NCBI GenBank assembly: GCA_024275165.1
Contig: JAJRZQ010000002.1
Location: forward strand, 76,679-140,678
DNA length: 64,000 nucleotides
DNA from: a bacterium
Lineage (GTDB): Bacteria > SAR324 > XYD2-FULL-50-16
Reading direction: 5' to 3'
Shown: piece after piece, positions 36,661 through 64,000 of the stretch
How positions within the stretch are numbered: position 1 is the stretch's first letter
How the letters are laid out: the number at the start of each line of letters is the position of its first letter
Position numbers and translations under genes: made by a program
The notes under the pieces: model-generated
Databases searched by the model: none
What the model was told of the DNA's origin: nothing
The model's input: the letters and a program-made list of their open reading frames with translations, nothing else

Positions 36661-37278
36661 TCAATACCTCATGAGAAATTGCAGGCCCAGATTTTTTTGT
36701 TCTTTTAAGCCTTCTTGATCCAGCCCGCGCATGAAGCGCGCCTCCAAAGCCAGAAAGGCATTGAGGTAATAAACAAAGCCTAGGGCGGCGAGATTGCCTT
36801 GCAGAATTGTTTCGGGAGAAAGGGCCTGGGCTTGAGCCAACTGGTAGGTTAGGTTGTATTTGCCCAACCAGAGGTCGAGGGTGAGTTGGTTTTGCCATAG
36901 GCTGTAGCTCCACCCCACCCCGAGTCGCTCCTGGTGTACCTGGAGGTAATCATAGCTGGAAGAGCCGCTGAGGATTGGGGTTTTTAACTTTTCCGCGCCA
37001 TCCAAAAAAGCGTATTCCAGCAGGAGGCCCTTTAGGCGGCAGCCAAAGGAGGTCTCAAAGGGGTGTTTGAAGTTGAAGGCTTTTTTTTGGGGGCTTGCGC
37101 TTTGCCCTTGCAGGCGGTAGGTCGGTGAAAAATCACTAAAGCTTAAGGAGCAGATGTTTTGCCCCTCCAGGGCTAAAATGCGGGTGCGCCCCTTTTGGGG
37201 GTTGATGGGTCTCAGCTCTTGGCTGAAGACAGGCAAGCTGATGGCCAATAAGAGGAAGGCGAGGCAAACTGCTTTCAT
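36661..37278 (-). CDS. small outer-membrane beta-barrel-like hypothetical protein
   Basis: signal peptide MKAVCLAFLLLAISLPVFSQE, C-terminal ...LMRY. Confidence 0.5.
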   Translation of the reverse strand: MKAVCLAFLLLAISLPVFSQELRPINPQKGRTRILALEGQNICSLSFSDFSPTYRLQGQSASPQKKAFNFKHPFETSFGCRLKGLLLEYAFLDGAEKLKTPILSGSSSYDYLQVHQERLGVGWSYSLWQNQLTLDLWLGKYNLTYQLAQAQALSPETILQGNLAALGFVYYLNAFLALEARFMRGLDQEGLKEQKNLGLQFLMRY

Positions 37279-41754: not shown

Positions 41755-43737
41755 CTACCTGGAAATTTGAATGGTCTTGATTCCCAGTTTTTCTTGCAAG
41801 AGCTGAACGACATATTGCACCTCGGGGTGTTGCCATTTTTCTGGCGGGAGGAAGTGAAAGAGGTCGAGTAGTTGTTGGTAGGCCTGTTGCGCCAAGTCTT
41901 CAGTCTGCATGTTGCACATTTTAAATTCCGCTTCGCAGAGGCCGATCTGCCCTTCTTTGATTTCTCCCATATCGCGACGAGCCTCATCGAGGTTGGCGAT
42001 TTCTTCATCATTGATTTTTCGGCTTCGGGCTAAGGTGCTTGTTTCTTCGGTGCTGCTGGTCAGCAAAAACATATAGGGATCGATGAACTGCTCGGCTAAG
42101 AGGGTTTCATTTTCTTTGTCCGATTTTTTGGGGGGGTCTTTTTCAAAAGAAGTAAGCCCTAAGGCAAAGATTAAGGGTTCCCCCACCCGCCCATAGGTCA
42201 AATAGGCGGCGTAATATTCCATCACCGGTTTGGGGGCATGGAGGGGGGAAAATTCATTGGCAAAGACTTTCTGGGTCTCTCTGGAGAGCACATAAAAGAG
42301 TTGCAGAAAAGCCTTTTTAAAGTGATCGATTTGGTTTTTGTCTCCAAAAAGATATTGCATCGCCATTAAGCCCCGGCGGGTTCCCCCTTGGCTGGGGCCG
42401 CGCCAGGCCACTACGCTGGTGTTGATTTGGCGCATCATCATCAGCCGTTCATTGCTTGCCGGGTTTTTATCCACCACCAAGACATCTTCAATGCTGTCGA
42501 ACTCTCCCGCTTCGTTGAAGATTTCTTCCATGCTTTTGAGTTCGGGGCCCTCGCCTGGTTTGCCGCTGTCTCCTCGTAGATCCTTGAAAAACTGCAAGAC
42601 CGATTCAATCGCGAGCATTCCGCGGGTCTTAAACATCATCATGGTTACATAAACGCGACCTAAAAGGCTGGGGTCGTCAATGCCTTGGTCGTACTTTCTT
42701 ACCGTGTCGGCAAAAATCTCCTCCACGCTTTTGTCGGGTTGCCCTAATAAGAGGCGCAGGCAATCTCGAATGTCTTTGAGGATGGCGTCTAGGGTGCTGG
42801 GGGCTAGTTGTTCCAAAAACTCCAAAAGCAAACGCTTGGTCTCTTGTTGGGCGAAGAGTTCTTCATCGAGCAGGTGTAAAATCAAGGCGTCGGGGGGGAG
42901 GAGCTGGCGGTTGAGCTCTAAAAAACAAGCGCTGAGCATGGCCATGTGATGGGGGCGCACCCCGGGCAGGCTCCCTGGTTTGCTGAGGCCTAAGAAGAAG
43001 AGTTTTAAGAAGTCATAGCGCTTTTTCGCGTAGATGGGCAGCATGCGGTGAGATTGCACAAAAGCGATTAAATCAACGAGGGCTAGGGGTAAATCCTGCC
43101 CCTTGAGATGAGAGGATAGCTCTTTGTTGTTTAATTGGCGCAAAATGTGACGGAGCAGGTCTAAGGAAAGCTCCATATCAATGCGCAATTTTTGTGATTT
43201 CTCTTGCAGGTAGCGAGGGTTGAAAAATTTCAATATTTTCTCCGCCAATTCAAAGCGGAAGGTATAAAGCGCGTGGACTTGGCTATCCACGACTTTATGA
43301 CTGAAGAGTTCTTTTTTTTCCGCCAAGGTGGCAATGACCTTATCGGTTCCCGGAAAGGTGCGAATAAAGGCCAAGGCGAGAGACTGACAGCCTTTCGGGT
43401 CCGAATCCAACAGGTATTGGGCGGTCAATTCAACCTTGTCCACATCGCCTAAGAGGTAGATGGTCTCTAAGGCAAAGAGTCGCCTCATGCGGTTGAGGCG
43501 GTTGAGTTCGATCCAAGCGGTGCTGACGCGTTCTGAAATGGCCTGAACCAAGGCGGGGTTGGCTCCGGTTGTTTTTCCCATTTCTTCAATGGCTTTTTTG
43601 GCTTTTTCTAAGGGCAGGGGTTCTTGGGCTTCGATGATATCCAACAGGGTTAAGTCTCGTTCTTTGCTTTGAATCCGTTTGCGTTTTTGCAACAGGATAA
43701 AGCGGTCGACTTTGTAGTTGAATTGATCCTCGCTCAT
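41755..43737 (-). CDS. large conserved hypothetical protein (no recognisable domain)
   Basis: ~660 aa ORF; start MSEDQF abuts stop of upstream membrane-protein gene. Confidence 0.5.
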   Translation of the reverse strand: MSEDQFNYKVDRFILLQKRKRIQSKERDLTLLDIIEAQEPLPLEKAKKAIEEMGKTTGANPALVQAISERVSTAWIELNRLNRMRRLFALETIYLLGDVDKVELTAQYLLDSDPKGCQSLALAFIRTFPGTDKVIATLAEKKELFSHKVVDSQVHALYTFRFELAEKILKFFNPRYLQEKSQKLRIDMELSLDLLRHILRQLNNKELSSHLKGQDLPLALVDLIAFVQSHRMLPIYAKKRYDFLKLFFLGLSKPGSLPGVRPHHMAMLSACFLELNRQLLPPDALILHLLDEELFAQQETKRLLLEFLEQLAPSTLDAILKDIRDCLRLLLGQPDKSVEEIFADTVRKYDQGIDDPSLLGRVYVTMMMFKTRGMLAIESVLQFFKDLRGDSGKPGEGPELKSMEEIFNEAGEFDSIEDVLVVDKNPASNERLMMMRQINTSVVAWRGPSQGGTRRGLMAMQYLFGDKNQIDHFKKAFLQLFYVLSRETQKVFANEFSPLHAPKPVMEYYAAYLTYGRVGEPLIFALGLTSFEKDPPKKSDKENETLLAEQFIDPYMFLLTSSTEETSTLARSRKINDEEIANLDEARRDMGEIKEGQIGLCEAEFKMCNMQTEDLAQQAYQQLLDLFHFLPPEKWQHPEVQYVVQLLQEKLGIKTIQISR

Positions 43738-44303
43738 GCTTGCCTTGGCGGGGGGGCATGCAGGGCCAACCATTGCCCGATCTCACCTAAGTTGGTGTTG
43801 AGCGCCCATTGGTTCAGTTTTTCAGGAGGAACGGAAACTTGATATTGTTCCGCTAAAAGCCGCAACCAATGTTGAAATTGGGTTTGGGTGACATGGATTA
43901 AATTGTTGTCCCGGTCAAAGTGAGAGGTTGTGGACTCGTCCGCCGCGATGGGGGAAAACTGGGTCGAGGGGCTCAACTCCTCGAGCGACACCTCGGGGAT
44001 TGCTTGGCAAAGGGTTTCGCTGAGTTTGGGTTCCAGCCAAAGGGCCTCAATGGGTTTGGTCTGGGTGGCCTCCCAGGGGTTGGGGGAGGGGGTTTTTGTT
44101 TTCGGGTTCGCCTCGTTGCGGCTATGGCCTTCTTCAAGTTGGTCGGCAGCGTAAAAAAAGAGCTGGCTGACTCCATAGTAAACGCCGATAAAAACGAGCC
44201 AGAGGGTGAGGCCCGAGAGCTGAAAGGCGCTGACCACACTCATGGCGACAAACAAGGAAACGGCAACCCGCAAAAAGCTTTTTCCCATGGGGGATCGCTG
44301 CAT
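43734..44303 (-). CDS. hypothetical membrane protein
   Basis: two N-terminal TM helices, P/S/T-rich cytoplasmic tail. Confidence 0.45.
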   Translation of the reverse strand: MQRSPMGKSFLRVAVSLFVAMSVVSAFQLSGLTLWLVFIGVYYGVSQLFFYAADQLEEGHSRNEANPKTKTPSPNPWEATQTKPIEALWLEPKLSETLCQAIPEVSLEELSPSTQFSPIAADESTTSHFDRDNNLIHVTQTQFQHWLRLLAEQYQVSVPPEKLNQWALNTNLGEIGQWLALHAPPPRQA

Positions 44304-44497: not shown

Positions 44498-45574
44498 ATG
44501 AGTCAGCTCTCACCGACCTCATCTTTATCCCCCGTTAGCCAAACCATGCCGGAGTTAAAGCAGAAATTGCTCTTGGTAGACGATCATCAAGAAAATTTAA
44601 CGGTTTTAAAGGCGGTGTTGAAAAATCAAGGCTATGATTTGGTGACCGCGTTGAATGGAAAAGAAGCTTTACATCAAGTTACCTTGTTCGATTTTGACTT
44701 GATTTTGCTCGACATCATGATGCCTGAACTCGATGGCTACGAAGTTTGCCAAATACTTAAGGCAGACCCGGATACGGTTGGGGTGCCGATTATTTTTATT
44801 ACGGCTAAAACCGATTTTGAATCCGTGGTCAAAGGTTATGAACTGGGGGCCGTTGATTATGTGACCAAGCCCTTTAACCCCGCGATTTTGCGGGTACGGA
44901 TCAAAAACCATTTGCGTTTGCGGCAAGCGGAGTTGGATTTGAAACGATCCGTAGCCTCCTTAGAGCAAGAAATGGCGCATCGGGTCGAGGTAGAACGAAT
45001 GTTGCGCCTGCGGGAAAAGGAATTAGAGCGCTTTGCCCTGCTCGACGGCTTGACTCAAATCGCCAATCGTCGGCGTTTCGATGAATACCTACAGTTCCAA
45101 TGGGCCAATAAAAAGCGTTCTAAAAAGCCAATCAGCTTGGTTTTATGCGATATCGACTTTTTTAAGCAGTTCAACGATCATTACGGGCATCAAGCGGGGG
45201 ATCAAGCCTTGCAGAATGTGGCCCGCGCCTTGCAACGCACTTTAAAGCGCCCTGAAGATATCGCCTGCCGGTACGGCGGAGAAGAATTTGTTTTGGTCTT
45301 GCCCGATACCCCGACCGAGGGCGCGGTCACGATTGCTCATCGGTTGCAAGAGTTTATTCAGGATTTGCAGATTCCTCATGAGTTTTCCAGGGCCAACCCT
45401 CTGCTGACCTTGAGCATGGGGGTGTCGACCCTGACCCCTGCCAATGATTGCAGTATGGAAGAGCTGATTCAACGGGCCGACCAATGTTTGTACGCGGCGA
45501 AAAGACAGGGTAGAAATCGCGTGGTGGCGGTTCTTGCAGAAGATGAAACAGAGAACGCAACCCCCAATACTTAA
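44498..45574 (+). CDS. response regulator receiver-GGDEF diguanylate cyclase
   Basis: REC (LLVDDHQENL...DLILLDIMMPELDGYEV) + GGDEF with intact RYGGEEF active site. Confidence 0.9.
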   Translation: MSQLSPTSSLSPVSQTMPELKQKLLLVDDHQENLTVLKAVLKNQGYDLVTALNGKEALHQVTLFDFDLILLDIMMPELDGYEVCQILKADPDTVGVPIIFITAKTDFESVVKGYELGAVDYVTKPFNPAILRVRIKNHLRLRQAELDLKRSVASLEQEMAHRVEVERMLRLREKELERFALLDGLTQIANRRRFDEYLQFQWANKKRSKKPISLVLCDIDFFKQFNDHYGHQAGDQALQNVARALQRTLKRPEDIACRYGGEEFVLVLPDTPTEGAVTIAHRLQEFIQDLQIPHEFSRANPLLTLSMGVSTLTPANDCSMEELIQRADQCLYAAKRQGRNRVVAVLAEDETENATPNT

Positions 45575-45586
45575 GGTGTAGGAATC

Positions 45587-46597
45587 ATGTCCGTAGGTAA
45601 ATTAACAGGTCCTAAAAAGGCGGCGATTCTACTTCTGGCGATGGGTGAAGAAGGCTCTGCCGAGGTAATTAAGAATTTAGAGGATCGCGAGATCCAACAG
45701 GTGGGTTATTACATGGCTCGCTTTACGGATGTGGCCCCCGAAGAGTTGGACGCGGTTTTAGAGGAGTTCTACCGTAAGGTAGCCATGCAGGATCAAGGCG
45801 TGGTGATCAACGCCAGCGGGGACTTTGTCAAAAACGCGATTGGCAAGGCCTTGGGGGATGATCGAGCCAAAGAATTGGTGGACAACCTAAAGGCAAGCAC
45901 CGACGAGGGGAGCCTAGATAGCCTGAAATGGCTGGAGCCCAAGGTGATTGCGGGGTTTATTTCAGGGGAACACCCCCAGACCATTGCCTTGATCCTAGCC
46001 CACTTAGAAGACCCGGAACAAACGGCCCATGTTTTGCGAGAACTCCCTGAAAACCTGCAAGCCGATGTGACCTATCGCATGGCGATTTTAGAAGCCATTC
46101 CCCCCGGGGTGGTCAAGGAAATCGAAGAGGTCTTAGCCCGGGAGTTGAGGTCTTCTGGGGCGGCGACCACCGCCAAGGTCGGGGGGGTGGAGGCCGTGGC
46201 CGAAATGCTCAACACCATGGATAAAACCACGGAATCCCGCATTTTAGCGACCATTGAAGAATCCAATCCCGACTTGGCCGAGCAGATTCGTGAATTGATG
46301 TTTACCTTTGAGGATCTCGTTTTGGTGGATCCCAACGGAATGCAGTTGCTGCTGAAGGAAATGCCGCAAAACGAGTTGGTTTTGGCTTTGAAGACAGCGA
46401 GCGACGCCATTAAAGAGCATATTTTTTCTAATATGTCCGAGCGGGCTGCCGACATGGTGCGCGACGACCTCGATGCCCTAGGGGCGGTACGGGTTGCCGA
46501 TGTGGATAATGCCCAGCAAAAAATGGTCAAGGTGGCGCGCAAGTTGGAAGAAGAAGGCAAAATCATCATCTCCGGGGCCGGTGGAGAAGTGGTTTAG
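45587..46597 (+). CDS. fliG: flagellar motor switch protein FliG
   Basis: 336 aa, characteristic FliG N/M/C domains, start 13 nt after DGC stop. Confidence 0.9.
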   Translation: MSVGKLTGPKKAAILLLAMGEEGSAEVIKNLEDREIQQVGYYMARFTDVAPEELDAVLEEFYRKVAMQDQGVVINASGDFVKNAIGKALGDDRAKELVDNLKASTDEGSLDSLKWLEPKVIAGFISGEHPQTIALILAHLEDPEQTAHVLRELPENLQADVTYRMAILEAIPPGVVKEIEEVLARELRSSGAATTAKVGGVEAVAEMLNTMDKTTESRILATIEESNPDLAEQIRELMFTFEDLVLVDPNGMQLLLKEMPQNELVLALKTASDAIKEHIFSNMSERAADMVRDDLDALGAVRVADVDNAQQKMVKVARKLEEEGKIIISGAGGEVV

Positions 46598-51259: not shown

Positions 51260-51532
51260 TTAAAAACCGAGATAAAAAGGAATGTTGTTGAACACCTTGG
51301 CCATGTATTCGGTGGCGGTGCTTAAAAACCAGGGGAGGAAGAGCATCAAGGCGATCATCACCCCGGCCATCTTGGGGATAATCGCTAAAGTCATTTCTTG
51401 AATTTGCGTTACTGCCTGAAAAATCGAGACCAACAAACCTAAAACCAGCGCGATTAAAAGCAGCGGAGCGGCCAACTTGGTGGCCACCAGCATGGCCTCG
51501 CTCGCTAGGGTAATCACCAGTTCGGGGGTCAT
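51260..51532 (-). CDS. fliQ: flagellar export apparatus protein FliQ
   Basis: 90 aa two-TM protein typical of FliQ. Confidence 0.85.
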   Translation of the reverse strand: MTPELVITLASEAMLVATKLAAPLLLIALVLGLLVSIFQAVTQIQEMTLAIIPKMAGVMIALMLFLPWFLSTATEYMAKVFNNIPFYLGF

Positions 51533-52353
51533 GGGCTCACTCCCGTAAAGCTCTGGACCAAGCTGCCGGTGATCAGGTACCAGCCGTCAACCAAGACAAA
51601 GAGCATGAGTTTAAAGGGCAAAGAGATCATAATGGGGGGGAGCATCATCATCCCCATGGCCATTAAAACCGAAGAAACGACCATATCAATCACCAAAAAG
51701 GGGATGTAGATAATAAATCCCATTTGAAAAGCGGTTTTTAATTCGCTGATCACAAAAGCGGGAATCACCACCCAAATGGGAACATCCGCGATATTTTGCG
51801 GTCGTTTGATCTTGGCGATGCGGACAAACAAGGCCAAATCCTTTTCTCGGGTATAGGTCACCATAAAGCGCTTGATAGGGCGTACCGCCCGTTCCATGGC
51901 CTCTTCTTGCCCAATTTTCTTGGCAAAGTAGGGGCTCAGGGCCTCGTCATAGATCTTGCCCCAGGTGGGGGCCATGAGGAAAAAGGTCAAAAACATGGCA
52001 AATCCAAGCAACACCTGATTGGGTGGGGATTGCTGGGTGCCCAAGGCGTTGCGCAAAAAGCCCAAGACGATGATGATGCGGGTAAAGCTGGTGGTCAATA
52101 AAAGCAATGCCGGGGCCAGGGTCAAGACCGATAAGAGGGCGATGACCTGCAAGGTGCTGGCAACTTGATCCGGGTTGCTGGAGCGGCCGATTTCTAAGTT
52201 GAAGCTGGGGATGGGAACTTGGCTCTGCGCCAGCAAGGGTAAGGCCCATAGGCACCCTACCAGGGGGAGTAAGAGCGTCTTGAGGGAGAGTTTGTTCCAG
52301 GTCATGCTGCATTGTAATTGGGTTCGTGTCATCATGCCAAAGCCTAGGGGCAA
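51529..52353 (-). CDS. fliP: flagellar export apparatus protein FliP
   Basis: signal peptide + conserved FliP C-terminal region (…IPFLVIDMVVSSVLMAMGMMMLPP…). Confidence 0.9.
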   Translation of the reverse strand: MPLGFGMMTRTQLQCSMTWNKLSLKTLLLPLVGCLWALPLLAQSQVPIPSFNLEIGRSSNPDQVASTLQVIALLSVLTLAPALLLLTTSFTRIIIVLGFLRNALGTQQSPPNQVLLGFAMFLTFFLMAPTWGKIYDEALSPYFAKKIGQEEAMERAVRPIKRFMVTYTREKDLALFVRIAKIKRPQNIADVPIWVVIPAFVISELKTAFQMGFIIYIPFLVIDMVVSSVLMAMGMMMLPPIMISLPFKLMLFVLVDGWYLITGSLVQSFTGVSP

Positions 52354-52365
52354 CCGTCAACAAAG

Positions 52366-54669
52366 TTAGGCAAGGGGGAAGAGCAGACGGGCTAGTTCGT
52401 TCATCCATTCGGCAATGAATTTTTGGCGTTGCGCAAAAGCATCCCAATCCATGATGGGCCGCAGCTCTGTCGCGATTTGCCCTGCTTCTCTCTCGGTTTT
52501 TTGGAGGTGCGCTTCCAGTTTTGCATCCGGTTGAGGGCCTCTTTTTTGCGCCATGCGGGCCATGGCTGTTTGGAGTTGAAAGTATTGGTTGATCTTCTCA
52601 TAGACCGGGCGTAAATCCTGGGGGGGTTTGCCTTTCCAGGGGGGTTGAAAGTATCGGTGGCGAGCGATGAGCCCGCTGAAATTTCGTTTGAATTTTTCTT
52701 GCTGGTTTTGGGCAAAGCCGGGGGGAAGCCGTCGATAGGCCCGCGCCGCCTCAAAGAGTTCATGGATGAAATTATAGGGCAATTCGAGGATCAAGGCCTC
52801 TTTTTGATCTTGAATGAGAAAGTCGTTGGAACTGGCTAAGATGTAGACCTGTACCCCTGTTGGGGTATAGGATTTTGCCAAGCGCGCGTCAAAGGCGATT
52901 TTTTGGGTGAGGTTGCTCAGATAAAGCTGAAAATCCTTTTCTTGGTTTTGTTCTATTGCCAGATTGATGGCCAGTCGCAAGCTGGGTAGGTGGTGATGCC
53001 GATATTTTAAGGCCAGGCGAATGGCATCGTAGGCAGCGGAAAATTTTTGTTGCAAGACTAAGGCAACGGCCTTGTGAAAGTCGTTTTCGCGATAATGGGG
53101 GATGATGGATTCAATGACTAAGGTGCTTTTGCCCAACTCGGTTCCTAAGTTCAGGCGGATCTGTTCATGGGCCGCTAAGTCCCAAGCGTAGATATCTCGG
53201 CTCTGTTTCAGTAATTGAGAGAGTTGATAGTAGCCCTTGGCCCTTTGGGGGGAAAAAATTTTCTCCTGCGCTTGCACAAAACGGTATTGATCTTTGAGCC
53301 AGGGAAGCAGCAAACTCCCGGCGAGTATTAAAATCCCTAAAGAAAGGCCTAATTTTGCCGGTAGGGAGGGGATAACCCCCTTGTTGATCCGAGGCTGGTT
53401 GAGGCGAAAGAGGAAAGCCATCCAGGCCCAATAGGGGATGAAGCTGACTACCATTCTCGGGGATACGGAAACCAAAGAGTGGACCAAGTAGGCAAACAAC
53501 CCGCCGGCAATGCCCAGAGCGAGCCAGCGGGCCTCGTTTTCTTGGGCGAGGAGCGCTTTTTTCGCGGCGAAAAATAACTGCGCCCATAAAAAGAGATAGG
53601 CCGCAAAAACCAGCAGACCGCCTTCTTGCAACAGTTCCAGCAACTCGGAATGGGCATGGTTGTAGCTGCTTTCTTGATGCAGCAAGGCGGCGTAAGGGGT
53701 CACATAGGTAAAAAAGAGGCTGTAGCTGCTCCCCAACCCCCAACCCCAGAGGGGAGAAGCGCTAAAAGAGCTCCAGGCCGCTTGCCAGGGGATCCAGCGC
53801 CCAATCCAAGCCCGGGCGGAAAAAAGTTCTAAAAACCGGCTGCTCGTGTGTGTGGGCCCGAAAAGCAAAAAAAGACCGAGGGTGAGCAGAGCGAGCAGAA
53901 AAAGCACCCCGGAGCCGAGCAGGAATTTTTTTAAGCCCTGGCGGTTAAATTGTCGTAAGCGAATCCAGGTCATGAGCCACAAGGCAAGGCCTAGGGCAAA
54001 AATAGCCGCGCGGGTCTGGGCCAAAAAGAGGGCGATGAGGCCAAAGACAAGGCCGTAACCGCATAATTTTCGCAAAAAAGGGAGCTGGTTCCAGTTGCCA
54101 AAAGCCTCCCAGGGGCGGGCAATGGCGATGAGCACGGGCAGCCCTTGAATCAGGGCCCCGCTCATGTAATTGCGATGTCCGTAGCTCGCTTGCGGGTAGG
54201 CCCCTGGGGTAAGGATAAACTCCACCAGCGACCAAACCCCGCTGAGGATCGCCACCACCGCGACCCAGCCGAAAAAGACGCGAATTTTAGCCTGGTCGTC
54301 CAGTTGGATCAAGAGGAGAAAAAACCATAAAAAGGCTAAAATGAGGCTCGCCAGTTCATAGGCAAAGTTATAATTAAAGGCCATCTGACTGTGCAGCAGG
54401 CCCGGTTGCCGGGTCAGGATGAGCAGCAAGGGGGCGGCGAGCCAGAGCGGATCGACCTCAATTTGGGTCTCTTTCTTCTTGAGAAATAGAGTGAGTACCA
54501 AGCCGCAAAGGCCGACCCAAACTAGGGCGAGCTTATAACTGTTGACCTGATAAAAGGCGTGGGAATAAGTGAGGTTGATCCATAAAAAAAAGAAACCCAG
54601 TCCGGTAGCGGGTTGCTGGAAAAAGCGCAGGGTTTTTTGGGTTAAAGAAGGGGTATTGTGCAGGCTCAA
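52366..54669 (-). CDS. O-antigen ligase/polymerase (Wzy_C)-family multi-TM protein with C-terminal soluble repeat domain
   Basis: ~12 TM N-terminal half with Wzy_C-like loop (LFLAQTRAAIFALGLALWL), ~330-aa C-terminal helical domain. Confidence 0.6.
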   Translation of the reverse strand: MSLHNTPSLTQKTLRFFQQPATGLGFFFLWINLTYSHAFYQVNSYKLALVWVGLCGLVLTLFLKKKETQIEVDPLWLAAPLLLILTRQPGLLHSQMAFNYNFAYELASLILAFLWFFLLLIQLDDQAKIRVFFGWVAVVAILSGVWSLVEFILTPGAYPQASYGHRNYMSGALIQGLPVLIAIARPWEAFGNWNQLPFLRKLCGYGLVFGLIALFLAQTRAAIFALGLALWLMTWIRLRQFNRQGLKKFLLGSGVLFLLALLTLGLFLLFGPTHTSSRFLELFSARAWIGRWIPWQAAWSSFSASPLWGWGLGSSYSLFFTYVTPYAALLHQESSYNHAHSELLELLQEGGLLVFAAYLFLWAQLFFAAKKALLAQENEARWLALGIAGGLFAYLVHSLVSVSPRMVVSFIPYWAWMAFLFRLNQPRINKGVIPSLPAKLGLSLGILILAGSLLLPWLKDQYRFVQAQEKIFSPQRAKGYYQLSQLLKQSRDIYAWDLAAHEQIRLNLGTELGKSTLVIESIIPHYRENDFHKAVALVLQQKFSAAYDAIRLALKYRHHHLPSLRLAINLAIEQNQEKDFQLYLSNLTQKIAFDARLAKSYTPTGVQVYILASSNDFLIQDQKEALILELPYNFIHELFEAARAYRRLPPGFAQNQQEKFKRNFSGLIARHRYFQPPWKGKPPQDLRPVYEKINQYFQLQTAMARMAQKRGPQPDAKLEAHLQKTEREAGQIATELRPIMDWDAFAQRQKFIAEWMNELARLLFPLA

Positions 54670-55779: not shown

Positions 55780-57504
55780 GTGGCAATCATGAGCGACTTG
55801 AGCGGTAAGCTGATTCAGCGCTTGAGCAAGGAAACGGAAAAAAATGAAGGGGAATTGGCAGAGCTCTATGCCCAGGCGAGAGAGAAAAACCGCCCCTTTT
55901 CAGAATGGGGGGAAAAAGCCAAGGCCTTTACCCCTACCCAGTACCAAAAGGCCTTGAGTCAAACCTTGGGCCTCGATTTTTTAGAAGACCTACCCGAACT
56001 TTCAGAAGCGCAACGGGAAAAATTTACCGAGGCGATTCCCATTCGTTTTGCGAAAAAATTCTTATTTTATCCCATTTTCGCGGGGGAGGAACTCTGGTTT
56101 GTCACCGCCAAGTCCTGGCCGATCGGGCATTTGGAAGAGGCGGCTCAGGCCTTGGGGTTTTCTCGTTTTCACCTGCGTTTGGCTACGGAGGGGGCCATTA
56201 TCGAAGCGATCAACAAAAGCTTTGACCGCACGGGAGGGAGTGCCGAGGAAGCGGCAGAGGTGTTGGAAGAAGACGAGGAATTTGCCCATTTGGGCCAGTT
56301 GGAAGAAGTGGAAGACCTACTGGACGCGCAAGATGAAGAACCCATTAAAAAATTAATGAATTCTATTTTGTTTCAATCGGTTAAAGAAGGCAGTTCTGAT
56401 GTGCATATTGACCCGACAGCAAAAAACACCCTGGTGCGCAATCGGGTGGATGGGATTTTGCGCCAGGTCGCCTCGGTGCCTAAAGCGGGCCATATCCCCT
56501 TGGTGAACCGGATTAAGGTCATGGCGGGGTTGGACATTTCCACCAAGAATCAACCCCAAGACGGGCGCAGCATGGTTTTATTGGGGGGGAAAAAGGTCGA
56601 TATTCGCGTTTCCGTCATCCCCACAGTACATGGCGAGCGGGCCGTGTTGCGCTTGCTGAATCAAAGCCAGGGAATTAAAAGCCTAGAGCGGATCGGTTTT
56701 TTGCCTGAAATGGCGCGGCAGATTCAAAAAGAATTGTCGCGCCCCCATGGGATTTTGCTGGTCACCGGCCCAACGGGCTCGGGTAAAACCACCACCCTCT
56801 ATTCCGCCTTGAACTTGATTGACGCGGAAGAAAAGAATGTGGTCACGATTGAAGACCCGGTGGAATACCGCATCTCGCAATATGGGCAGATGCAGGTGAA
56901 CGAAAAGATCGGGGTTACCTTTGCCAAGGGGTTGCGCTCCATGTTGCGCCAAGACCCCGATGTCATCATGGTGGGGGAGATGCGTGATTCGGAAACAGCT
57001 CAAATCGCCATTCAGGCCGCCTTGACCGGGCATTTGGTTTTAAGCACCCTGCACACCAACGATGCGCCCTCTTCCATTGTGCGCTTGATTGATATGGGGA
57101 TCGAGCCTTTTTTGGTCTCTTCGACCCTCTCTGCTATTTTAGCCCAGCGCTTGGTGCGCAAAATTTGCCAAAAATGCAAAAAAGAATACAAGCTCTCAGA
57201 TGAAGAGTTGGAGCAGCTCAACCTGCCTCAAGAGGCAAAAAAAATCCTGCGAGGTACTATTTATAAAGGAGTTGGGTGCAAAAACTGCATAGGTACGGGC
57301 TACCAGGGAAGAGTCGGGGTATTTGAGCTGTTGCTCATGAATGACGAGGTTCGCGCCGCCGTGGCATCTTCAGCCGATTCCAATCAAATCAGAGAGCTTG
57401 CCTTAAAAAGCGGGATGACCCCTTTGGTGGTGGATGTAGCCTACAAGGTGGCCGCGGGGGAAACAAGTCTGGAAGAGATGTTGCGCGTCTTTTATGTGGT
57501 TTAG
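55780..57504 (+). CDS. GspE/PilB/MshE-family secretion ATPase (orphan)
   Basis: T2SSE_N domain, Walker A GPTGSGKTTT, Walker B/Asp box, tetracysteine CQKC...CKNC. Confidence 0.85.
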   Translation: MAIMSDLSGKLIQRLSKETEKNEGELAELYAQAREKNRPFSEWGEKAKAFTPTQYQKALSQTLGLDFLEDLPELSEAQREKFTEAIPIRFAKKFLFYPIFAGEELWFVTAKSWPIGHLEEAAQALGFSRFHLRLATEGAIIEAINKSFDRTGGSAEEAAEVLEEDEEFAHLGQLEEVEDLLDAQDEEPIKKLMNSILFQSVKEGSSDVHIDPTAKNTLVRNRVDGILRQVASVPKAGHIPLVNRIKVMAGLDISTKNQPQDGRSMVLLGGKKVDIRVSVIPTVHGERAVLRLLNQSQGIKSLERIGFLPEMARQIQKELSRPHGILLVTGPTGSGKTTTLYSALNLIDAEEKNVVTIEDPVEYRISQYGQMQVNEKIGVTFAKGLRSMLRQDPDVIMVGEMRDSETAQIAIQAALTGHLVLSTLHTNDAPSSIVRLIDMGIEPFLVSSTLSAILAQRLVRKICQKCKKEYKLSDEELEQLNLPQEAKKILRGTIYKGVGCKNCIGTGYQGRVGVFELLLMNDEVRAAVASSADSNQIRELALKSGMTPLVVDVAYKVAAGETSLEEMLRVFYVV

Positions 57505-57656: not shown

Positions 57657-59312
57657 ATGAAAGATAGCAAACCCAAGGGGTTGAGTTTACTTTACGACCT
57701 CCCCCTACTCTATAAATGGATGCTGTTCGCAGTTTTGACTCTCAGCGGCATTACCTTGCTTTTAGGGCTCGGCTTCCCCGAGCGTATCGCTCAAGACCAA
57801 CTCGAACAGCTCAAGGTTTTTGGCAAAAGCCAGACCTTAATGGTCGCTAAGATGACCGAAGAAAGCCTACGCAGCCGCAATGTAGCTTTATTGGAGCAAA
57901 GCTTGACCCTTTTGGAAGAAGAGGTGATCTCGCAAGAGCTTGGGCTTTTTGAGGTTTCCGTGATCCTGTTTCCCTCCGGTTACTTCTATGCCTCGACCAA
58001 TTCCGCCTTTGTGGGGAAAACAGCCCATCAAAGCTTACTCAAACGCTTGGCGGGGAGCATGGATAAGCGGGTCCAGGTAAGTTTGGTCAGCTATCATTCC
58101 TTAGGGAAAACCATTCGGGCCTTTCAGTTTACCAAAGATATCCTGATGGATTCAGCGGGCTCTAAAGTGAAGGTCGCCAGTGCGCAAACCCTGCTGGGCT
58201 ATGATCATATCGTCTTTCAAGTACAAAAGAAAATTTTTATTATCGGGGTCTGGGCGATTTTATTTGCCTTGGCTCTGATCTGGGTTGTCGCGGTTCCGGT
58301 TATTCATGCCTTAAATCGCGCTACGGAGGGGATGAGCGCGGTGATGCAGAAGAATTTTCAACTTCGCTACCACCCCGAAACAAAAGATGAGGTGGGGCTT
58401 TTGCTGCTTCGTTTCAACCAGATGAGTCAGTTTTTGCTGGGCTTTTATCAAGAATACCAAAGGCTGAATGAAAAGCTTTTAGAGCAGGTGCCGGGCAAGC
58501 CCGATACCGCCTTGGACATCGCCACGGTGCGCAAGGCGGAGCTGACCTGTTTAGCCGCCAGGTTGCCCGGGTTGCAAGAGGTGATACATCGGGAGACGCC
58601 AGAACATATTGTGGGCTTTGTAGAGCAGTTTTTGACCAATTTCAACAACCGGATTACCGAGAGCGGCGGGCAGGTGGTGAAGGTTTTGGGAGATAAGGTC
58701 TACTGCCTTTTTGAGGGGATCAATGGGGTCAACAACGCCTTGCGTGCCGCGGCGCTCATCAGCCAAACCTGGAAGGGGATCAACCACGAAAAAAAGGTTT
58801 TTGGCAAGGATGCCTTTCACTACGGGATCGGGCTGCATTCTGCCGAGGGGATCTCTGGGAATATCGGCCACGGGGCCGATAGTTATAGTTTTATCGGGGA
58901 TGGGGCAAAGGTCGCCGCCTTTTTGTGTTCCGCGGCCAAATCGGGGGAGATTCTCATCACGGGGAGCATGCTGGAAAAGGCGCAACATACCTATCAAACC
59001 AGAGAGGTTAAAGATTTACCCAGCCGATTTTTAGGGATTGACGAAGCGATTATTTCTTTGCAAGAGGCGGGTTTGCCCCCTAAGGAGGCCCCCAACTCGA
59101 TCCCGCGGCAGGAAAAAAAGTCCGCGCCGAGCTTTAAGGTCCAGAACGCGGAGGGCGGGATTCCCGATATGATGGAAGAGACCTACGAGGCGGCGCCCCT
59201 CTCCTTGGAAATAAAAAATCGGATGGACGAACCCCTAGAAGAGGTCAATTGGGATCAGGAAGATTTTTTCTTAGATCACCCCTTAGATGATTCCGAAGAG
59301 GAAAAAAAATAA
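57657..59312 (+). CDS. membrane-bound class III adenylate/guanylate cyclase with HAMP domain
   Basis: 2 TM + HAMP + CYC domain (FVEQFLTNFNNRITESGGQVVKVLGDKVYCLFEG...GIGLHSAEGISGNIG). Confidence 0.75.
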   Translation: MKDSKPKGLSLLYDLPLLYKWMLFAVLTLSGITLLLGLGFPERIAQDQLEQLKVFGKSQTLMVAKMTEESLRSRNVALLEQSLTLLEEEVISQELGLFEVSVILFPSGYFYASTNSAFVGKTAHQSLLKRLAGSMDKRVQVSLVSYHSLGKTIRAFQFTKDILMDSAGSKVKVASAQTLLGYDHIVFQVQKKIFIIGVWAILFALALIWVVAVPVIHALNRATEGMSAVMQKNFQLRYHPETKDEVGLLLLRFNQMSQFLLGFYQEYQRLNEKLLEQVPGKPDTALDIATVRKAELTCLAARLPGLQEVIHRETPEHIVGFVEQFLTNFNNRITESGGQVVKVLGDKVYCLFEGINGVNNALRAAALISQTWKGINHEKKVFGKDAFHYGIGLHSAEGISGNIGHGADSYSFIGDGAKVAAFLCSAAKSGEILITGSMLEKAQHTYQTREVKDLPSRFLGIDEAIISLQEAGLPPKEAPNSIPRQEKKSAPSFKVQNAEGGIPDMMEETYEAAPLSLEIKNRMDEPLEEVNWDQEDFFLDHPLDDSEEEKK

Positions 59313-59740: not shown

Positions 59741-60579
59741 AATCTTTTATAGTTGGCTTTATTTGTCAGCCCATAGACCACAATGCCAATCGCTTCATGC
59801 AGGGCCAGCGCGCTTTGACCCAAGCCTGGGTAAGAAGGAATGAAGTGGTTGAGCCTTAAGGTTTTAGGGGTTCTGATATCCGTACTCATATAGTCTAGCT
59901 CAAGCCCGAGCTTTTGAAAACAGCCTTGGACGCGAAAAGCGTGAAAGGCGCTGGTGACCACCAGGCCCCGGCTCCATCCCCTTTGGTGAAGAATTTCCGC
60001 GCTCTTTTCGGCGTTTTCCGCCGTATTGCGCGATTGAGTTTCTACTAAGATACGAGCGGGATCAACCCCTAATGTTTGCTTTGCGAAACGAGCCAGTTGC
60101 TCTGCCTCGCTGCGTTGAACCGCGCGCAGGCTGCCGCTGCGCCCCGTAATCAAGAGATAATCCGCTCTGCCCGATTTCACCAGTTTGCTGCCGAGTAAGA
60201 TGCGCTCTACGGCGTCGCCAAAGGGGAGGAGGCCCTTGCCCCCCTGGTTGGTTTCGGGTTTCAGCATCCCGCTGAAGACGATGACCACCGGATAATGCTT
60301 TTGCAAGGGGGTTGGTGGGACTAGGGTTTCTAAGCTGGAAAGTAAAGCATTCCCCATGGCGGGGCAACTGAGGAGGGTGATGAAGGCCCAGATCCCCCAC
60401 CAGAGCTTTTTCAAAGGCCCCCTGAGCCGGTAAATCGCGCAGGCGCTCAAGGCCAAGAGCCAGACCAAGGGGTCGAGTAGGAATAAGAGCAGTTTAGAAA
60501 GAATAAAGAACATTGACAGTCTAGAAGAAAGCCTTGAAACATAAAGGAAACACCAATAAACAGGCCTAGTATGGGCCAC
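59737..60579 (-). CDS. DUF218 (YdcF/SanA/ElyC) family envelope protein
   Basis: N-terminal TMs, YLLITGRSGS... and TSAFHAFR. Confidence 0.65.
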   Translation of the reverse strand: MAHTRPVYWCFLYVSRLSSRLSMFFILSKLLLFLLDPLVWLLALSACAIYRLRGPLKKLWWGIWAFITLLSCPAMGNALLSSLETLVPPTPLQKHYPVVIVFSGMLKPETNQGGKGLLPFGDAVERILLGSKLVKSGRADYLLITGRSGSLRAVQRSEAEQLARFAKQTLGVDPARILVETQSRNTAENAEKSAEILHQRGWSRGLVVTSAFHAFRVQGCFQKLGLELDYMSTDIRTPKTLRLNHFIPSYPGLGQSALALHEAIGIVVYGLTNKANYKRL

Positions 60580-60595
60580 GCCTTAGGTCTCGTCA

Positions 60596-61402
60596 ATGTC
60601 GCGAAAACCCTGCCTTTTAAGTTTTGCCGGATTCGACCCCTCTGGAGGGGCCGGTATTTTGGCGGACCTTGCTGTTTTTAATGCCTTGGGTTGCCGGGGG
60701 ATGGCGGTCGCCACCGCCTTGACCGCGCAAAACAGCCAAGGGGTGAGTTCTTGGGAGCCCGTTGCCCCAGAGTTGTTGCAACATCAATTGCGGGCCTTGG
60801 TTGCTGACTTTTCTTTTGCGGGGGTGAAACTGGGGATGCTGGGGCGGGCCTCTGCGATTGCGGCTTGGTTAGAGGTCTGGGAGCCCGCGAAATTTGGGTT
60901 TTTGTTGCTGGATCCGTTGATTTTTTCCTCTTCCGGGTTGGCCTTGCTCGACCCGGCCGCCCAGGCCCTTTTGGTGCAAAAAATATTTCCCTTCGTGGAT
61001 TTGCTGACGCCGAACCTACCGGAAGGGGAAGCCTTGACCAAGATAAAGCTTCCCTCTCCAGGGGGGGCAAACTCTCCAGAGTTTTCAGAAGCTTTGCTGC
61101 AAATGGGGGAGGCCCTACTGGCCCTGGGGCCAAAAGCGGTTTTGTTGAAGGGGGGGCATGGGCAAGGCCCCGCGGTGGATTATCTGTTTAGGCCGGGGCA
61201 GCGCCAGGCTTTTTCTCTTCCTCGTCTTTCTGGCCCAAGCCCTCATGGCACGGGCTGTCATTTGAGCAGCGCTATCTTAGCTCGCTTGAGCTTAGGGGAT
61301 AGCTTGCCCGAAGCGGTGTCTCGGGCAAAGGGGCTGTTGAGCGCTTGGATGCAAAATGCCCAATCCCTAGGCCAAGGCAATCCTTATTTATTTCCTTTTT
61401 GA
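60596..61402 (+). CDS. thiD: hydroxymethylpyrimidine/phosphomethylpyrimidine kinase
   Basis: LLSFAGFDPSGGAGILADL..., ribokinase-like GG motif. Confidence 0.8.
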   Translation: MSRKPCLLSFAGFDPSGGAGILADLAVFNALGCRGMAVATALTAQNSQGVSSWEPVAPELLQHQLRALVADFSFAGVKLGMLGRASAIAAWLEVWEPAKFGFLLLDPLIFSSSGLALLDPAAQALLVQKIFPFVDLLTPNLPEGEALTKIKLPSPGGANSPEFSEALLQMGEALLALGPKAVLLKGGHGQGPAVDYLFRPGQRQAFSLPRLSGPSPHGTGCHLSSAILARLSLGDSLPEAVSRAKGLLSAWMQNAQSLGQGNPYLFPF

Positions 61403-61439
61403 GGCCTTTGTTTTTGGTGTCATCCTTACCTTATATATA

Positions 61440-61650
61440 GGAACCTCTGAAAAACTCCCTGCCTACCGCTTGTTCAAGCGGTAGGTTCGTGCCCTGCGGG
61501 CTGATGATAGCCCTTGGGGCGCGTCAAATTTTTCCGTCTTTTTGGTGGGGAATGAAATCCACAATCCCAACGCGAATCCATAAGTCGCGCTTTTTGCTTT
61601 GGCAAGGCATCCCTGCCTTGCGGGGAAACTCCGCGTTTTTCAGAGTTTCC
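61440..61650 (-). repeat. MITE-like repeat element copy B (inverted relative to copy A)
   Basis: reverse complement aligns to 8795-9002 over its whole length (~85-90% id) including both terminal hairpins. Confidence 0.8.
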
Positions 61651-61811
61651 TATAATTATAGGGTTGGGAATCCCGCACAAAGCGAAGTATCTTTGAAATA
61701 TAATTTATTGTTATCATTATATTATTCAAAAAAATTGGAGAAAGGGCTCAAGTTTCTCTCCCCCATGCCGAAAGAGAGTCAAGCCTTCGTAAGGAGGTGA
61801 AAAAAAGTTAC

Positions 61812-61838
61812 TCAAGTTTCGGCGGTTCATGCCGATAA
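61812..61838 (+). promoter_or_regulatory. sigma-28 (FliA) promoter for flagellin
   Basis: TCAAGTTT-N11-GCCGATAA vs consensus TAAAGTTT-N11-GCCGATAA; 55 nt upstream of flagellin ATG. Confidence 0.7.
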
Positions 61839-61893
61839 GGAAATAAAAGCGGTCGGGATCGGCAAAGTCCCGGCGCAAAAATGGAGCAAAACA

Positions 61894-62886
61894 ATGAGCT
61901 TAAAAATCAATCACAATACGGCGGCAATTAATTCCTGGAGGAATTTAAAGGCCACCGATGACGCAATGAATAAGACCTTAGAGCACTTAAGCAGTGGCAA
62001 AAAATTAAACCGCGCTTCAGACGGCCCCGCCAACATGGTCATCGCCGAGCAAATGCGCGGCCAAGTGGCCAGTTTGGAACAGGCGACCAGCAATAGCGAA
62101 ATCGCCATTTCCATGGTGCAAACCGCAGAAGGCAGCTTAAACGAAGTGAGCAATATCTTGATCCGCTTGCGCCAACTGTCGCTACACGCGGCCAACGAAG
62201 GGGCCAACGACGACAAGATGCTGGCCGCGGATCAAGCAGAGATCGACAACTTGATCAGCACTTTAGATGGAATCAGTCACCAGGCGCAGTTCGGTACCCG
62301 GATGCTCTTAGATGGTTCCAACGGAATCAGCGGGGTCGGTGTGGGCGATGGGATTCGCTTTGTCTCGGCGATTACCGAGACCGAATCGAGCCCGGCAGAC
62401 GGCTACGAGGTGGATATCACCCAAGCGGCGACCAAAGCGAGACTGGAGGGCTCCAGGCCCTTGTCAGATGAGGAGGTCAATGGGGGCAATATCCAAATCA
62501 CCCTGCACGAAGGGGGAAAAAGCCTCACCTACTATACCAAGGTAGGCGAAACCATGGAAGCGATTGTAAAAAATCTAAGCCAGCAGGCAAAGCAGAATAA
62601 TCTTAAACTGGAGTTTGGGATTACCGAAGACAAACGCATGTGGGTCGAACATTTGGAATATGGCTCGGAGCCGAGTTTCGGCGCCGTGGTCGGAGTCGCG
62701 GGCATTTTAACCGAGGAGGCGAACAACTTGGGCGAAGCCGTTCAAGGGACGGATGTCCAGGGCACCATTGGGGGCGAACTGGCCTACGGGGACGGGCAAT
62801 ATCTCACGGGGGCGAAGGGCACCAAGGCCGAGGGTCTGGTGTTGCAATATACCGGTTGGGTAAAAACCCAAATCCAATTGGATTAA
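61894..62886 (+). CDS. fliC: flagellin, N-terminal fragment (terminated by in-frame TAA)
   Basis: conserved flagellin N-domain MSLKINHNTAAINSWRNL... Confidence 0.8.
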   Translation: MSLKINHNTAAINSWRNLKATDDAMNKTLEHLSSGKKLNRASDGPANMVIAEQMRGQVASLEQATSNSEIAISMVQTAEGSLNEVSNILIRLRQLSLHAANEGANDDKMLAADQAEIDNLISTLDGISHQAQFGTRMLLDGSNGISGVGVGDGIRFVSAITETESSPADGYEVDITQAATKARLEGSRPLSDEEVNGGNIQITLHEGGKSLTYYTKVGETMEAIVKNLSQQAKQNNLKLEFGITEDKRMWVEHLEYGSEPSFGAVVGVAGILTEEANNLGEAVQGTDVQGTIGGELAYGDGQYLTGAKGTKAEGLVLQYTGWVKTQIQLD

Positions 62887-62922
62887 CAGGGCAACCCCAT
62901 CCCGGGGGAAGACGGCAAACCC

Positions 62923-63402
62923 TTGCCCCCGAAGGATAAAGCGGAAGGCGCGGTTTATGTGACCAATAACGCCCTCAATTTTCAGATCGGCCCGGCGCAG
63001 GAGCAAACCGCGCGCATCGCTTTACCCAATATCAACGCGCATTCTTTAGGGCGCGGGGTGAAGAACGATTCGGGTTATGCCAGCTTGGGCGAGATTGATG
63101 TGACCACTTTTCAAGGGGCGCAAGACGCTCTCTTGATGATTGATCAGGCGGTCCATGAAGTGACCAATGTGCGGGGCAAGTTGGGTGCTTTCCAAAAGAA
63201 TACCTTGGAGATCAACCTGAACAATCTGCGCTACTCCACAGAAAACCTCATGTCGGCAGAGAGCGAGTTGCGAGATACCGATATGGCCGCGGAGATGAGC
63301 GAGTTTACGAAACAGCAGATTCTCTTAGCAAGCGGCACCGCCATGTTGGGGCAGGCGAACCAAACGCCCAAGGCGGTATTGAATCTCTTAAACGCCCAGT
63401 AA
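62923..63402 (+). CDS. fliC: flagellin, C-terminal fragment in same frame as 61894 ORF
   Basis: conserved flagellin C-domain ...LRYSTENLMSAESELRDTDMAAEMSEFTKQQILLASGTAMLGQANQTPKAVLNLL. Confidence 0.75.
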   Translation: MPPKDKAEGAVYVTNNALNFQIGPAQEQTARIALPNINAHSLGRGVKNDSGYASLGEIDVTTFQGAQDALLMIDQAVHEVTNVRGKLGAFQKNTLEINLNNLRYSTENLMSAESELRDTDMAAEMSEFTKQQILLASGTAMLGQANQTPKAVLNLLNAQ

Positions 63403-63572
63403 GGGCGTGAAGGCGAGTGAATGGCAGGGGGCTTATCGCCCTTAGAATAGGCCTGGGGTGGATTGAACCCCGCCCCTCGCCTTGAGCGAGTAAAAAGCAA
63501 TAATAAAATCAACCCTGAGAAGGGTTAAACAGAACGCACCCGGTGGCAAGCCGGGTCTAATGGAGCAAGGCA

Positions 63573-63989
63573 ATGGCACAAGGAAGGCCTTATCAGGCAT
63601 ATCAATCCAACGGGGTAAGTACCTCCAACCAAAAGCAGTTGGTGGTCATGCTCTTTGACGGGATGCACCGCTTCTTGAGCCAATCGATCAAGGCTTTAGC
63701 GGAAGACGACTTTGAGGGAACCCACCTCTTTTTACACAAGACAGGAAAGATTCTCTTAGAGTTGATTTCTACCTTGAGTGAGGAAAAGGGTGGGGAAATT
63801 GCCCGGAATTTAAAGAACATCTACCTTTTTTGTTACGAACAGGTGGTGATTGCGAACCTGAAAAAAGAGGAGCAACTCATCTTAGATGTGCAGGATATTT
63901 TAAACAATATCAGGATGGGCTTTAAAGCGGCGACCCAAAAACAACAGGTTACGGGTACGGCGCCCCAAGCACTCAGGGTAACGGGATAA
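63573..63989 (+). CDS. fliS: flagellin-specific export chaperone FliS
   Basis: 138 aa, AYQSNGVSTSNQKQLVVMLFDGMHRFL pattern. Confidence 0.8.
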   Translation: MAQGRPYQAYQSNGVSTSNQKQLVVMLFDGMHRFLSQSIKALAEDDFEGTHLFLHKTGKILLELISTLSEEKGGEIARNLKNIYLFCYEQVVIANLKKEEQLILDVQDILNNIRMGFKAATQKQQVTGTAPQALRVTG

Positions 63990-64000
63990 GCGGCATGATC

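What the first reader, a model, noticed from the sequence alone, without database searches (positions are those of the whole stretch)
61894..63402. Flagellin gene interrupted by an in-frame TAA (62884-62886)
ORFs 61894..62886 and 62923..63402 are in the same frame and encode the conserved N- and C-terminal flagellin domains respectively. Joined (...QIQLD*QGNPIPGEDGKPL...) they would give a ~503-aa flagellin. A good sigma-28 promoter and fliS downstream indicate a locus that is otherwise intact. Possible explanations are a recent nonsense mutation (loss of motility), a sequencing error, or a split-gene arrangement in which only the N-terminal fragment is made.
Basis: seen in the sequence. Interest (0 to 1): 0.5.

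Follow-up and report, generated by a model that had tools for sequence, protein, structure and literature searches.

The report
Flagellin gene with one-base premature stop
One flagellin gene of an uncultured SAR324/Lambdaproteobacteria-type bacterium is cut short by a single G-to-T change (GAA to TAA); it is an ordinary, very recent null allele or, less likely, an assembly error, and not a special coding mechanism.

Summary
ATG 61894 to TAA 62884-62886 and the same frame on to TAA 63400-63402 together encode a 502-residue flagellin. Flagellin_N lies before the stop and Flagellin_C after it. At least 55 full-length orthologues (about 500 aa, up to 89% identical) read straight through this position. 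The two closest have GAA and GAG there, and all nine orthologues examined as DNA start that codon with G. The stop is therefore one G>T substitution.

The 171 codons after the stop show no decay: the window has 6 lineage-specific amino-acid changes and its intact closest relative has 7. The event is therefore recent, or an artefact.

TAA is the normal terminator here (26 of 46 genes), and no other gene in the window is split. Recoding and an error-ridden assembly are both unlikely. Relatives carry two more flagellin genes just after fliS, so loss of this copy need not abolish motility.

One curiosity: the only other unique radical change in the protein, G322W, is also G>T and lies 27 nt upstream. 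Both changes perfect local palindromes, which hints at quasipalindrome-templated mutation. No same-species sequence exists in the collections searched, so real allele and consensus error cannot be separated. Low interest.

The parts
60596..61402 (+). thiD-like kinase gene (Phos_pyr_kin), the upstream synteny anchor
   Evidence: Pfam PF08543, E 5e-64. The same gene precedes the orthologous flagellin in L004.
61748..61774 (+). Distal sigma-28-like promoter element, TCAAGTTT-N11-GCCGAAAG
   Evidence: Pattern search. The element is conserved in L001, L002 and L004 in the upstream alignment. Function is inferred from resemblance to the enterobacterial consensus TAAAGTTT-N11-GCCGATAA (own knowledge).
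61812..61838 (+). Proximal sigma-28-like promoter element, TCAAGTTT-N11-GCCGATAA
   Evidence: GCCGATAAG is conserved in L001, L002 and L004.
61894..62886 (+). Flagellin reading frame up to the premature stop: 330 codons plus TAA, covering N-terminal D0/D1 and most of the variable domain
   Evidence: Flagellin_N E 4e-33. 89% identical to intact P0001.
62857..62859 (+). TGG (Trp322) where 53 of 55 orthologues have Gly and all 9 DNA orthologues have GGN; a derived G>T at 62857
62856..62871 (.). Small hairpin TTGGGT-AAAA-ACCCAA, made perfect (6 bp) by the T at 62857
   Evidence: stem 4 bp becomes 6 bp; weak energetically.
62871..62884 (.). Perfect 14-bp palindrome AATCCAATTGGATT, whose last base is the T that creates the stop
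   Evidence: It is one of six 14-bp perfect palindromes in the 64 kb. With the ancestral G it would be 12 bp.
62884..62886 (+). Premature TAA at codon 331; orthologues have GAA, GAG, GCC or GAC
62887..63402 (+). Untranslated remainder of the flagellin frame: 171 codons plus the normal TAA, covering the end of the variable domain and C-terminal D1/D0. It is fully conserved.
   Evidence: Flagellin_C E 1e-21. All family-invariant residues are retained. Lineage-specific changes are 6, against 7 in the intact relative.
63573..63989 (+). fliS, the flagellin export chaperone gene; intact
   Evidence: PF02561 E 8e-30 and TIGR00208 E 5e-25. It sits at the same position in L002-L004 and L071.

Best explanation
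This is the orthologue of a widely conserved 502-aa flagellin of SAR324/Lambdaproteobacteria-type bacteria. A single G>T transversion has turned codon 331 (ancestrally GAA, Glu) into TAA. As written, the gene yields only a 330-residue fragment containing N-terminal D0/D1 and most of the surface domain. The fragment lacks the C-terminal D1/D0 helices that are needed for filament polymerisation and for FliS binding (established knowledge of flagellins), so this copy is a null allele. The change is very recent relative to the divergence from the closest known relative, because the untranslated tail is still under the signature of purifying selection. The most likely status is a genuine allele in the sampled population, tolerated because the lineage has several flagellin paralogues. 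A sub-hypothesis, given roughly 35-40% if the allele is real, concerns how the change arose. The stop and the nearby G322W change may both have come from quasipalindrome-templated (template-switch) mutation, since each new T is complementary to the base opposite it in a local inverted repeat. Shown: the lesion, its single-base nature, its derived state, the lack of decay, the intact surroundings, and paralogues in relatives. Inferred: that it is a real allele, that function is lost, that motility is retained, and the mutational mechanism.
For: Searches show one in-frame TAA. One search places Flagellin_N before the stop and Flagellin_C after it. Searches show at least 55 continuous orthologues of about 500 aa, with E (27), A (18), D (7), P (2) or V (1) in the stop column. 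Searches show GAA in the closest relative, GAG in the next, and G as first base in all 9 DNA orthologues. One search compares the post-stop part: the window has 6 unique amino-acid changes and L001 has 7; in the last 102 residues the counts are 1 and 3. Window-L001 dN/dS is about 0.04 both before and after the stop, with dS saturated. One search shows TAA terminating 26 of 46 genes in the window. Searches show that every other Pfam-matched gene in the window has essentially full profile coverage and none is split, so the assembly is not error-ridden. One search gives the relatives' gene order: thiD, flagellin (502 aa), fliS, flagellin (478), a 437-aa gene, flagellin (485). One search shows several flagellin loci per related MAG. 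Searches show that an independent orthologue (L071) carries a different single lesion, a 1-nt deletion at about codon 307, so disabled copies of this gene recur. For the palindrome sub-hypothesis, one search gives the chance that a random substitution lands its base in a perfect stem: 0.95% for stems of at least 7 bp and 3.2% for at least 6 bp. One search shows that of 120 window-derived nucleotide changes, the only 4 that perfect a palindrome all lie in 62857-62884. The mechanism is documented in PMC7202029 and PMC3820800.
Against: No read data and no same-species sequence could be found, so a consensus error cannot be excluded. Two unusual G>T changes lie 27 nt apart, both in a T_G context. 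That could equally mark a local sequencing or assembly problem. The palindrome statistics were designed after the pattern was noticed, and the hairpins are weak (-6.1 versus -4.3 kcal/mol). The paralogues are seen in relatives only, because the window ends just after fliS.
Confidence: 0.7

Rival explanations
1. Consensus (sequencing or assembly) error: the organism really has GAA at codon 331, and probably GGG at codon 322, and the gene is intact.
For: The downstream part is perfectly conserved, which is what an error predicts. The only two aberrant residues in the whole protein are the same kind of change (G>T after a T), lie 27 nt apart and sit at inverted repeats. From my own knowledge, inverted repeats are a reported trigger of sequence-specific Illumina errors and of fold-back artefacts in library preparation. 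The sequence is known from a single contig only.
Against: None of the roughly 45 other genes in the 64 kb shows a truncation or split. Substitution errors that survive into a consensus are rare, whereas single-lesion pseudogenes are common in bacterial genomes (general knowledge). Another assembly of an orthologue also carries a single lesion, which is consistent with real segregating null alleles, although it could be an error too.
Confidence: 0.23
2. Programmed recoding: TAA is read through or reassigned to a sense codon, so a full-length flagellin is still made.
For: The frame stays open and conserved after the stop.
Against: TAA is the most used genuine terminator in the window (26 of 46 genes), including fliS and the flagellin's own end. 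None of the 55 or more orthologues has a stop here. No other gene has an in-frame TAA. No tRNA gene lies in the window, and no Rfam element reached threshold in 60000-64000, which covers the stop. From general knowledge, UAA is the least leaky bacterial stop codon.
Confidence: 0.02
3. A functional split gene: the N-terminal and C-terminal parts are made as two separate polypeptides, the second by reinitiation at TTG 62923 or GTG 62959.
For: Two ORFs exist. An orthologue (L071) is also called as two ORFs, Flagellin_N and Flagellin_C.
Against: The L071 split has a different cause (a 1-nt deletion) and a different position, so there is no conserved architecture. No good Shine-Dalgarno sequence lies at suitable spacing before 62923. 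Only a marginal GGAAGG lies 11 nt before GTG 62959 (read). From established flagellin biology, a C-terminal fragment would lack the N-terminal type-III export signal, and the N-terminal fragment would lack the FliS-binding and polymerisation helices.
Confidence: 0.03

Closest known systems
Bacterial flagellin (FliC/Hag family; Pfam Flagellin_N PF00669 plus Flagellin_C PF00700)
   Same: N- and C-terminal helical domains flank a variable central domain. Sigma-28-type promoter elements lie upstream and fliS lies downstream.
   Different: The reading frame is interrupted at codon 331, so the C-terminal domain is not translated as part of the protein.
Single-lesion pseudogenes or null alleles of redundant flagellin paralogues in multi-flagellin bacteria
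   Same: One copy among several tandem or dispersed flagellin genes is disabled by one point lesion and is otherwise undecayed.
   Different: Paralogues are demonstrated only in relatives, not in this genome, because the window ends at 64000.
Quasipalindrome-associated template-switch mutations (E. coli and yeast; PMC7202029, PMC3820800)
   Same: Each derived base is the complement of the base at the mirror position of an imperfect inverted repeat, so the repeat becomes perfect.
   Different: The repeats here are short (6- and 7-bp arms) and thermodynamically weak. Two separate repeats are involved. There is no experimental or population evidence, and the pattern was noticed post hoc.

Membership tests
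Flagellin (PF00669 + PF00700) | N-terminal helical domain (Flagellin_N) | tested here: met
   PF00669 E 4.3e-33, residues 5-143, full profile.
Flagellin (PF00669 + PF00700) | C-terminal helical domain (Flagellin_C) in the same polypeptide | tested here: not met
   PF00700 (E 1.3e-21) is encoded only after the in-frame TAA. The gene as written is a pseudogene or null allele of a flagellin.
Flagellin (PF00669 + PF00700) | Orthology to intact flagellins in conserved gene order | tested here: met
   60-89% identity over all 502 positions to at least 55 proteins. The thiD-flagellin-fliS order is shared with L004.
Sigma-28 (FliA)-dependent class-3 flagellar promoter | TAAAGTTT-N11-GCCGATAA-like elements upstream | tested here: met
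   TCAAGTTT-N11-GCCGATAA at 61812-61838, plus a second copy at 61748-61774, both conserved in orthologous loci. Activity is not testable here.
Programmed stop-codon readthrough or codon reassignment | The stop codon is conserved at the site in relatives | tested here: not met
   No orthologue has a stop there: 55 proteins and 9 DNA sequences.
Programmed stop-codon readthrough or codon reassignment | The codon is not used as a terminator elsewhere, or in-frame occurrences exist in other genes | tested here: not met
   TAA ends 26 of 46 genes. No other gene is split by a single in-frame stop.
Old, decaying pseudogene | Relaxed constraint downstream of the lesion: extra stops, frameshifts, raised dN | tested here: not met
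   No further lesion is present. Unique changes number 6 in the window and 7 in the intact relative. Window-L001 dN/dS is about 0.04 on both sides of the stop.
Quasipalindrome-templated mutation | The derived base is complementary to the mirror position of a pre-existing imperfect inverted repeat | tested here: met
   T62884 pairs with A62871 (a 12-bp palindrome becomes 14 bp). T62857 pairs with A62870 (a 4-bp stem becomes 6 bp).
Quasipalindrome-templated mutation | Recurrence as a hotspot, or dependence on replication or exonuclease genotype | not testable with these tools
   This needs population reads or experiments.

The most novel reading that the evidence does not exclude
This flagellin paralogue may be a recurrent target of inactivation in natural SAR324-type populations. 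Three independent assemblies carry different lesions within codons 307-342: a frameshift in L071, the TAA here, and a replaced C-terminus in L072. In this reading the local quasipalindromes act as a mutational hotspot, a kind of contingency site that switches off one surface antigen or phage receptor while the other flagellins keep the cell motile.
Probability: 0.05. Interest if true: 0.45.

Novelty: already known. Interest (0 to 1): 0.12.

Why it matters
It matters little beyond annotation. The gene should be labelled as a flagellin pseudogene or null allele with an internal stop, and not as two separate proteins. Motility should not be scored as lost for this organism on this basis alone. 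The palindrome-perfecting pattern of the two G>T changes is a small natural-history example that could interest people who study template-switch mutagenesis, but only if reads confirm that the allele is real.

Tried and rejected
1. I looked for the same sequence elsewhere as a substitute for a read pile-up. This used exact-protein look-ups, a protein search of 5.8 billion sequences, a scan of GTDB species representatives and two metagenome DNA scans. One DNA scan was exact around the stop with N at the mutated base; the other was degenerate at the codon level. Nothing closer than 89% amino-acid or 79% nucleotide identity exists apart from the window's own contig, so real allele and error could not be separated.

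2. Alternative genetic code or TAA readthrough was rejected on stop-codon usage and the absence of any other in-frame stop.

3. The other long same-frame ORF pairs (44498-45574 with 45587-46597, and 39780-41651 with 37275-39767) were checked as possible further split genes. They are distinct neighbouring genes.

4. I asked whether the 14-bp palindrome is a repeated motif or binding site. It is unique in the window, even allowing 2 mismatches.

5. A search for an RNA element or strong structure around the stop found no Rfam match and only weak hairpins.

6. A search for a second flagellin copy inside the window found none (tblastn).

7. The sigma-70 and terminator scan of the locus gave nothing informative.

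Full report
**Observation.** The window sequence shows an ATG at 61894 and a TAA at 62884-62886. The same frame continues open to the TAA at 63400-63402. Translated straight through, it gives 502 sense codons with one internal stop (...VKTQIQLD*QGNPIPGEDGKPL...). Pfam finds a complete Flagellin_N domain (E 4e-33) in residues 5-143. It finds a complete Flagellin_C domain (E 1e-21) at the end of the post-stop segment. NCBIfam flagellin models match both halves. fliS follows at 63573-63989 (PF02561, TIGR00208), and a thiD-like kinase gene precedes at 60596-61402.

**What the intact gene looks like.** A search with the joined protein returned thousands of flagellins. At least 55 of them are near-full-length orthologues of about 500 aa, mostly 502, with 60-89% identity. 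They come from metagenomes and from MAGs labelled SAR324, Candidatus Lambdaproteobacteria, Deltaproteobacteria or simply 'bacterium'. The 330-aa fragment itself is on record once, from an NCBI contig of 189,420 bp, which is evidently the source of the window.

All orthologues align without gaps and none has a stop at column 331. They carry E (27), A (18), D (7), P (2) or V (1) there. At the DNA level the closest relative (L001, 79% nucleotide and 89% amino-acid identity) has GAA and the next (L002) has GAG. All nine orthologues examined as DNA start this codon with G. The TAA is therefore a derived, single G>T transversion of a Glu codon.

**Age of the lesion.** If the gene had been dead for long, the untranslated tail should be accumulating changes. 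It is not. Every family-invariant residue downstream of the stop is retained. In a three-way comparison, the window lineage has 6 unique amino-acid changes in codons 332-502, against 7 in the intact L001 lineage. In the last 102 residues the counts are 1 and 3. Window-L001 dN/dS is about 0.04 on both sides of the stop. There are no further stops or frameshifts. The change is very recent compared with the divergence from L001, where synonymous sites are saturated, or it is not real.

**Recoding and assembly quality.** TAA terminates 26 of 46 genes in the window, including fliS and the flagellin itself. A six-frame scan for long open segments separated by one stop found only two other candidates, and both proved to be distinct neighbouring genes: a GGDEF response regulator next to FliG, and HtpG next to an 830-aa protein. 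All other genes with Pfam matches show essentially complete profile coverage. No tRNA gene or Rfam element is nearby. Codon reassignment and programmed readthrough are therefore rejected. The assembly is not generally error-prone.

**Context.** The orthologous locus in relatives reads thiD, flagellin (502 aa), fliS, flagellin (478 aa), a 437-aa gene, flagellin (485 aa). Individual related MAGs contain several more flagellin loci. The window ends just after fliS, so the paralogues of this genome cannot be seen. By inference, this organism also has several flagellins, and loss of one would not necessarily abolish motility.

Upstream, two tandem sigma-28-like elements are present: TCAAGTTT-N11-GCCGAAAG at 61748-61774 and TCAAGTTT-N11-GCCGATAA at 61812-61838. 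Both are conserved in L001, L002 and L004. The gene is probably still transcribed.

**Consequence (inferred from established flagellin biology).** The 330-residue product keeps the N-terminal export signal. It lacks the C-terminal D1/D0 helices that form the filament core and bind the chaperone FliS, so it cannot be a functional filament subunit. A separately made C-terminal piece is unlikely. TTG 62923 has no usable Shine-Dalgarno sequence. GTG 62959 has only a marginal GGAAGG 11 nt upstream (read). Such a piece would also lack the export signal.

**A detail on how the change may have arisen.** Across the whole protein, only three residues depart from a consensus of at least 93% among 55 orthologues. 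Two of them (S86, L92) are shared with other orthologues. The only unique one is Trp322, encoded by TGG where the orthologues have GGN. This is again a G>T at a first codon position, and it lies only 27 nt upstream of the stop.

Both new T's perfect local inverted repeats. T62884 extends ATCCAATTGGAT to the perfect 14-bp palindrome AATCCAATTGGATT (62871-62884), one of only six such palindromes in the 64 kb. T62857 makes TTGGGT-AAAA-ACCCAA (62856-62871) a perfect 6-bp stem. A random substitution in this gene would place its base in a perfect stem of at least 7 bp with probability 0.95%, and of at least 6 bp with probability 3.2%. Of the 120 nucleotide changes derived in the window lineage, the only four that perfect a palindrome all lie in 62857-62884.

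This is the signature of quasipalindrome-associated template-switch mutation (PMC7202029, PMC3820800). However, I noticed the pattern before I tested it. The hairpins are weak, at -6.1 against -4.3 kcal/mol for the inferred ancestor. Inverted repeats can also provoke sequencing and library artefacts (own knowledge). I treat this as a suggestive sub-hypothesis only.

**Real allele or error?** No reads and no second sequence of the same species are available. Exact look-ups, the protein search, the species-representative scan and two metagenome DNA scans all failed to find one.

Three considerations favour a real allele. About 45 neighbouring genes are intact. Single-lesion pseudogenes are far more common than consensus substitution errors (general knowledge). 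An independent assembly of an orthologue (L071) also carries a single lesion, a 1-nt deletion at about codon 307 with a perfectly conserved remainder. Against this, the clustering of two odd G>T changes in the same T_G context keeps an artefact plausible. I put the real null allele at about 0.7, consensus error at about 0.23, and the exotic readings at about 0.05 together.

**Verdict.** What is there is an ordinary, very recent one-base nonsense lesion, or possibly an error, in one of several flagellin genes of an uncultured SAR324-type bacterium. It is already known in kind and of low interest. The only mildly interesting points are the palindrome-perfecting nature of the two G>T changes and the fact that three independent assemblies carry different lesions within codons 307-342 of this orthologue.

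Noticed in passing
window 62857-62859: Trp322 (TGG) replaces a Gly that is present in 53 of 55 orthologues, and GGN in all 9 DNA orthologues. It is the only unique radical substitution in the protein. Like the stop, it is a G>T at a first codon position, and it lies 27 nt upstream of the stop.
   Followed up: yes
window 62856-62884: Two adjacent inverted repeats are each made perfect by one of the G>T changes: TTGGGT-AAAA-ACCCAA and the 14-bp palindrome AATCCAATTGGATT. Two synonymous derived changes (62871 and 62877, both CAG>CAA) also contribute to the palindrome.
   Followed up: yes
L071:285-1789: An orthologous flagellin (78% identical, ENA metagenome contig) is split into Flagellin_N and Flagellin_C ORFs by a 1-nt deletion at about codon 307. 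The downstream frame is fully conserved and fliS follows.
   Followed up: partly
L072:618-1958: A flagellin orthologue is collinear up to about residue 342 and then continues into about 100 unrelated residues with no Flagellin_C domain. It could be an assembly chimera or a real fusion. Its breakpoint lies in the same 307-342 region as the other two lesions.
   Followed up: no
window 61748-61838: Two tandem sigma-28-like promoter elements lie 64 nt apart upstream of the flagellin, and both are conserved in orthologous loci (L001, L002, L004).
   Followed up: partly
window 44498-46597: A complete fliG (FliG_N, FliG_M and FliG_C domains) stands apart from other flagellar genes. It starts 12 nt after, and in the same frame as, a response-regulator-GGDEF diguanylate cyclase gene. 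This suggests a c-di-GMP-linked motor or brake module.
   Followed up: no
window 51260-54669 (- strand): fliP (51529-52353) and a fliQ-like 90-aa ORF (51260-51532) sit alone downstream of a 767-aa protein with an O-antigen-ligase (Wzy_C) domain. Flagellar genes are scattered in this genome segment.
   Followed up: no
window 9005-9469, 55780-57504, 57657-59312: Further second-messenger-related genes are present: a PilZ-domain protein, a T2SSE ATPase with an MshEN domain, and a HAMP-adenylate/guanylate cyclase.
   Followed up: no
window 37275-39767, 41755-43773, 6986-8251, 25482-26534, 35864-36913: Five large ORFs (830, 672, 421, 350 and 349 aa) have no Pfam match at E<=1e-3 or E<=1e-4.
   Followed up: no
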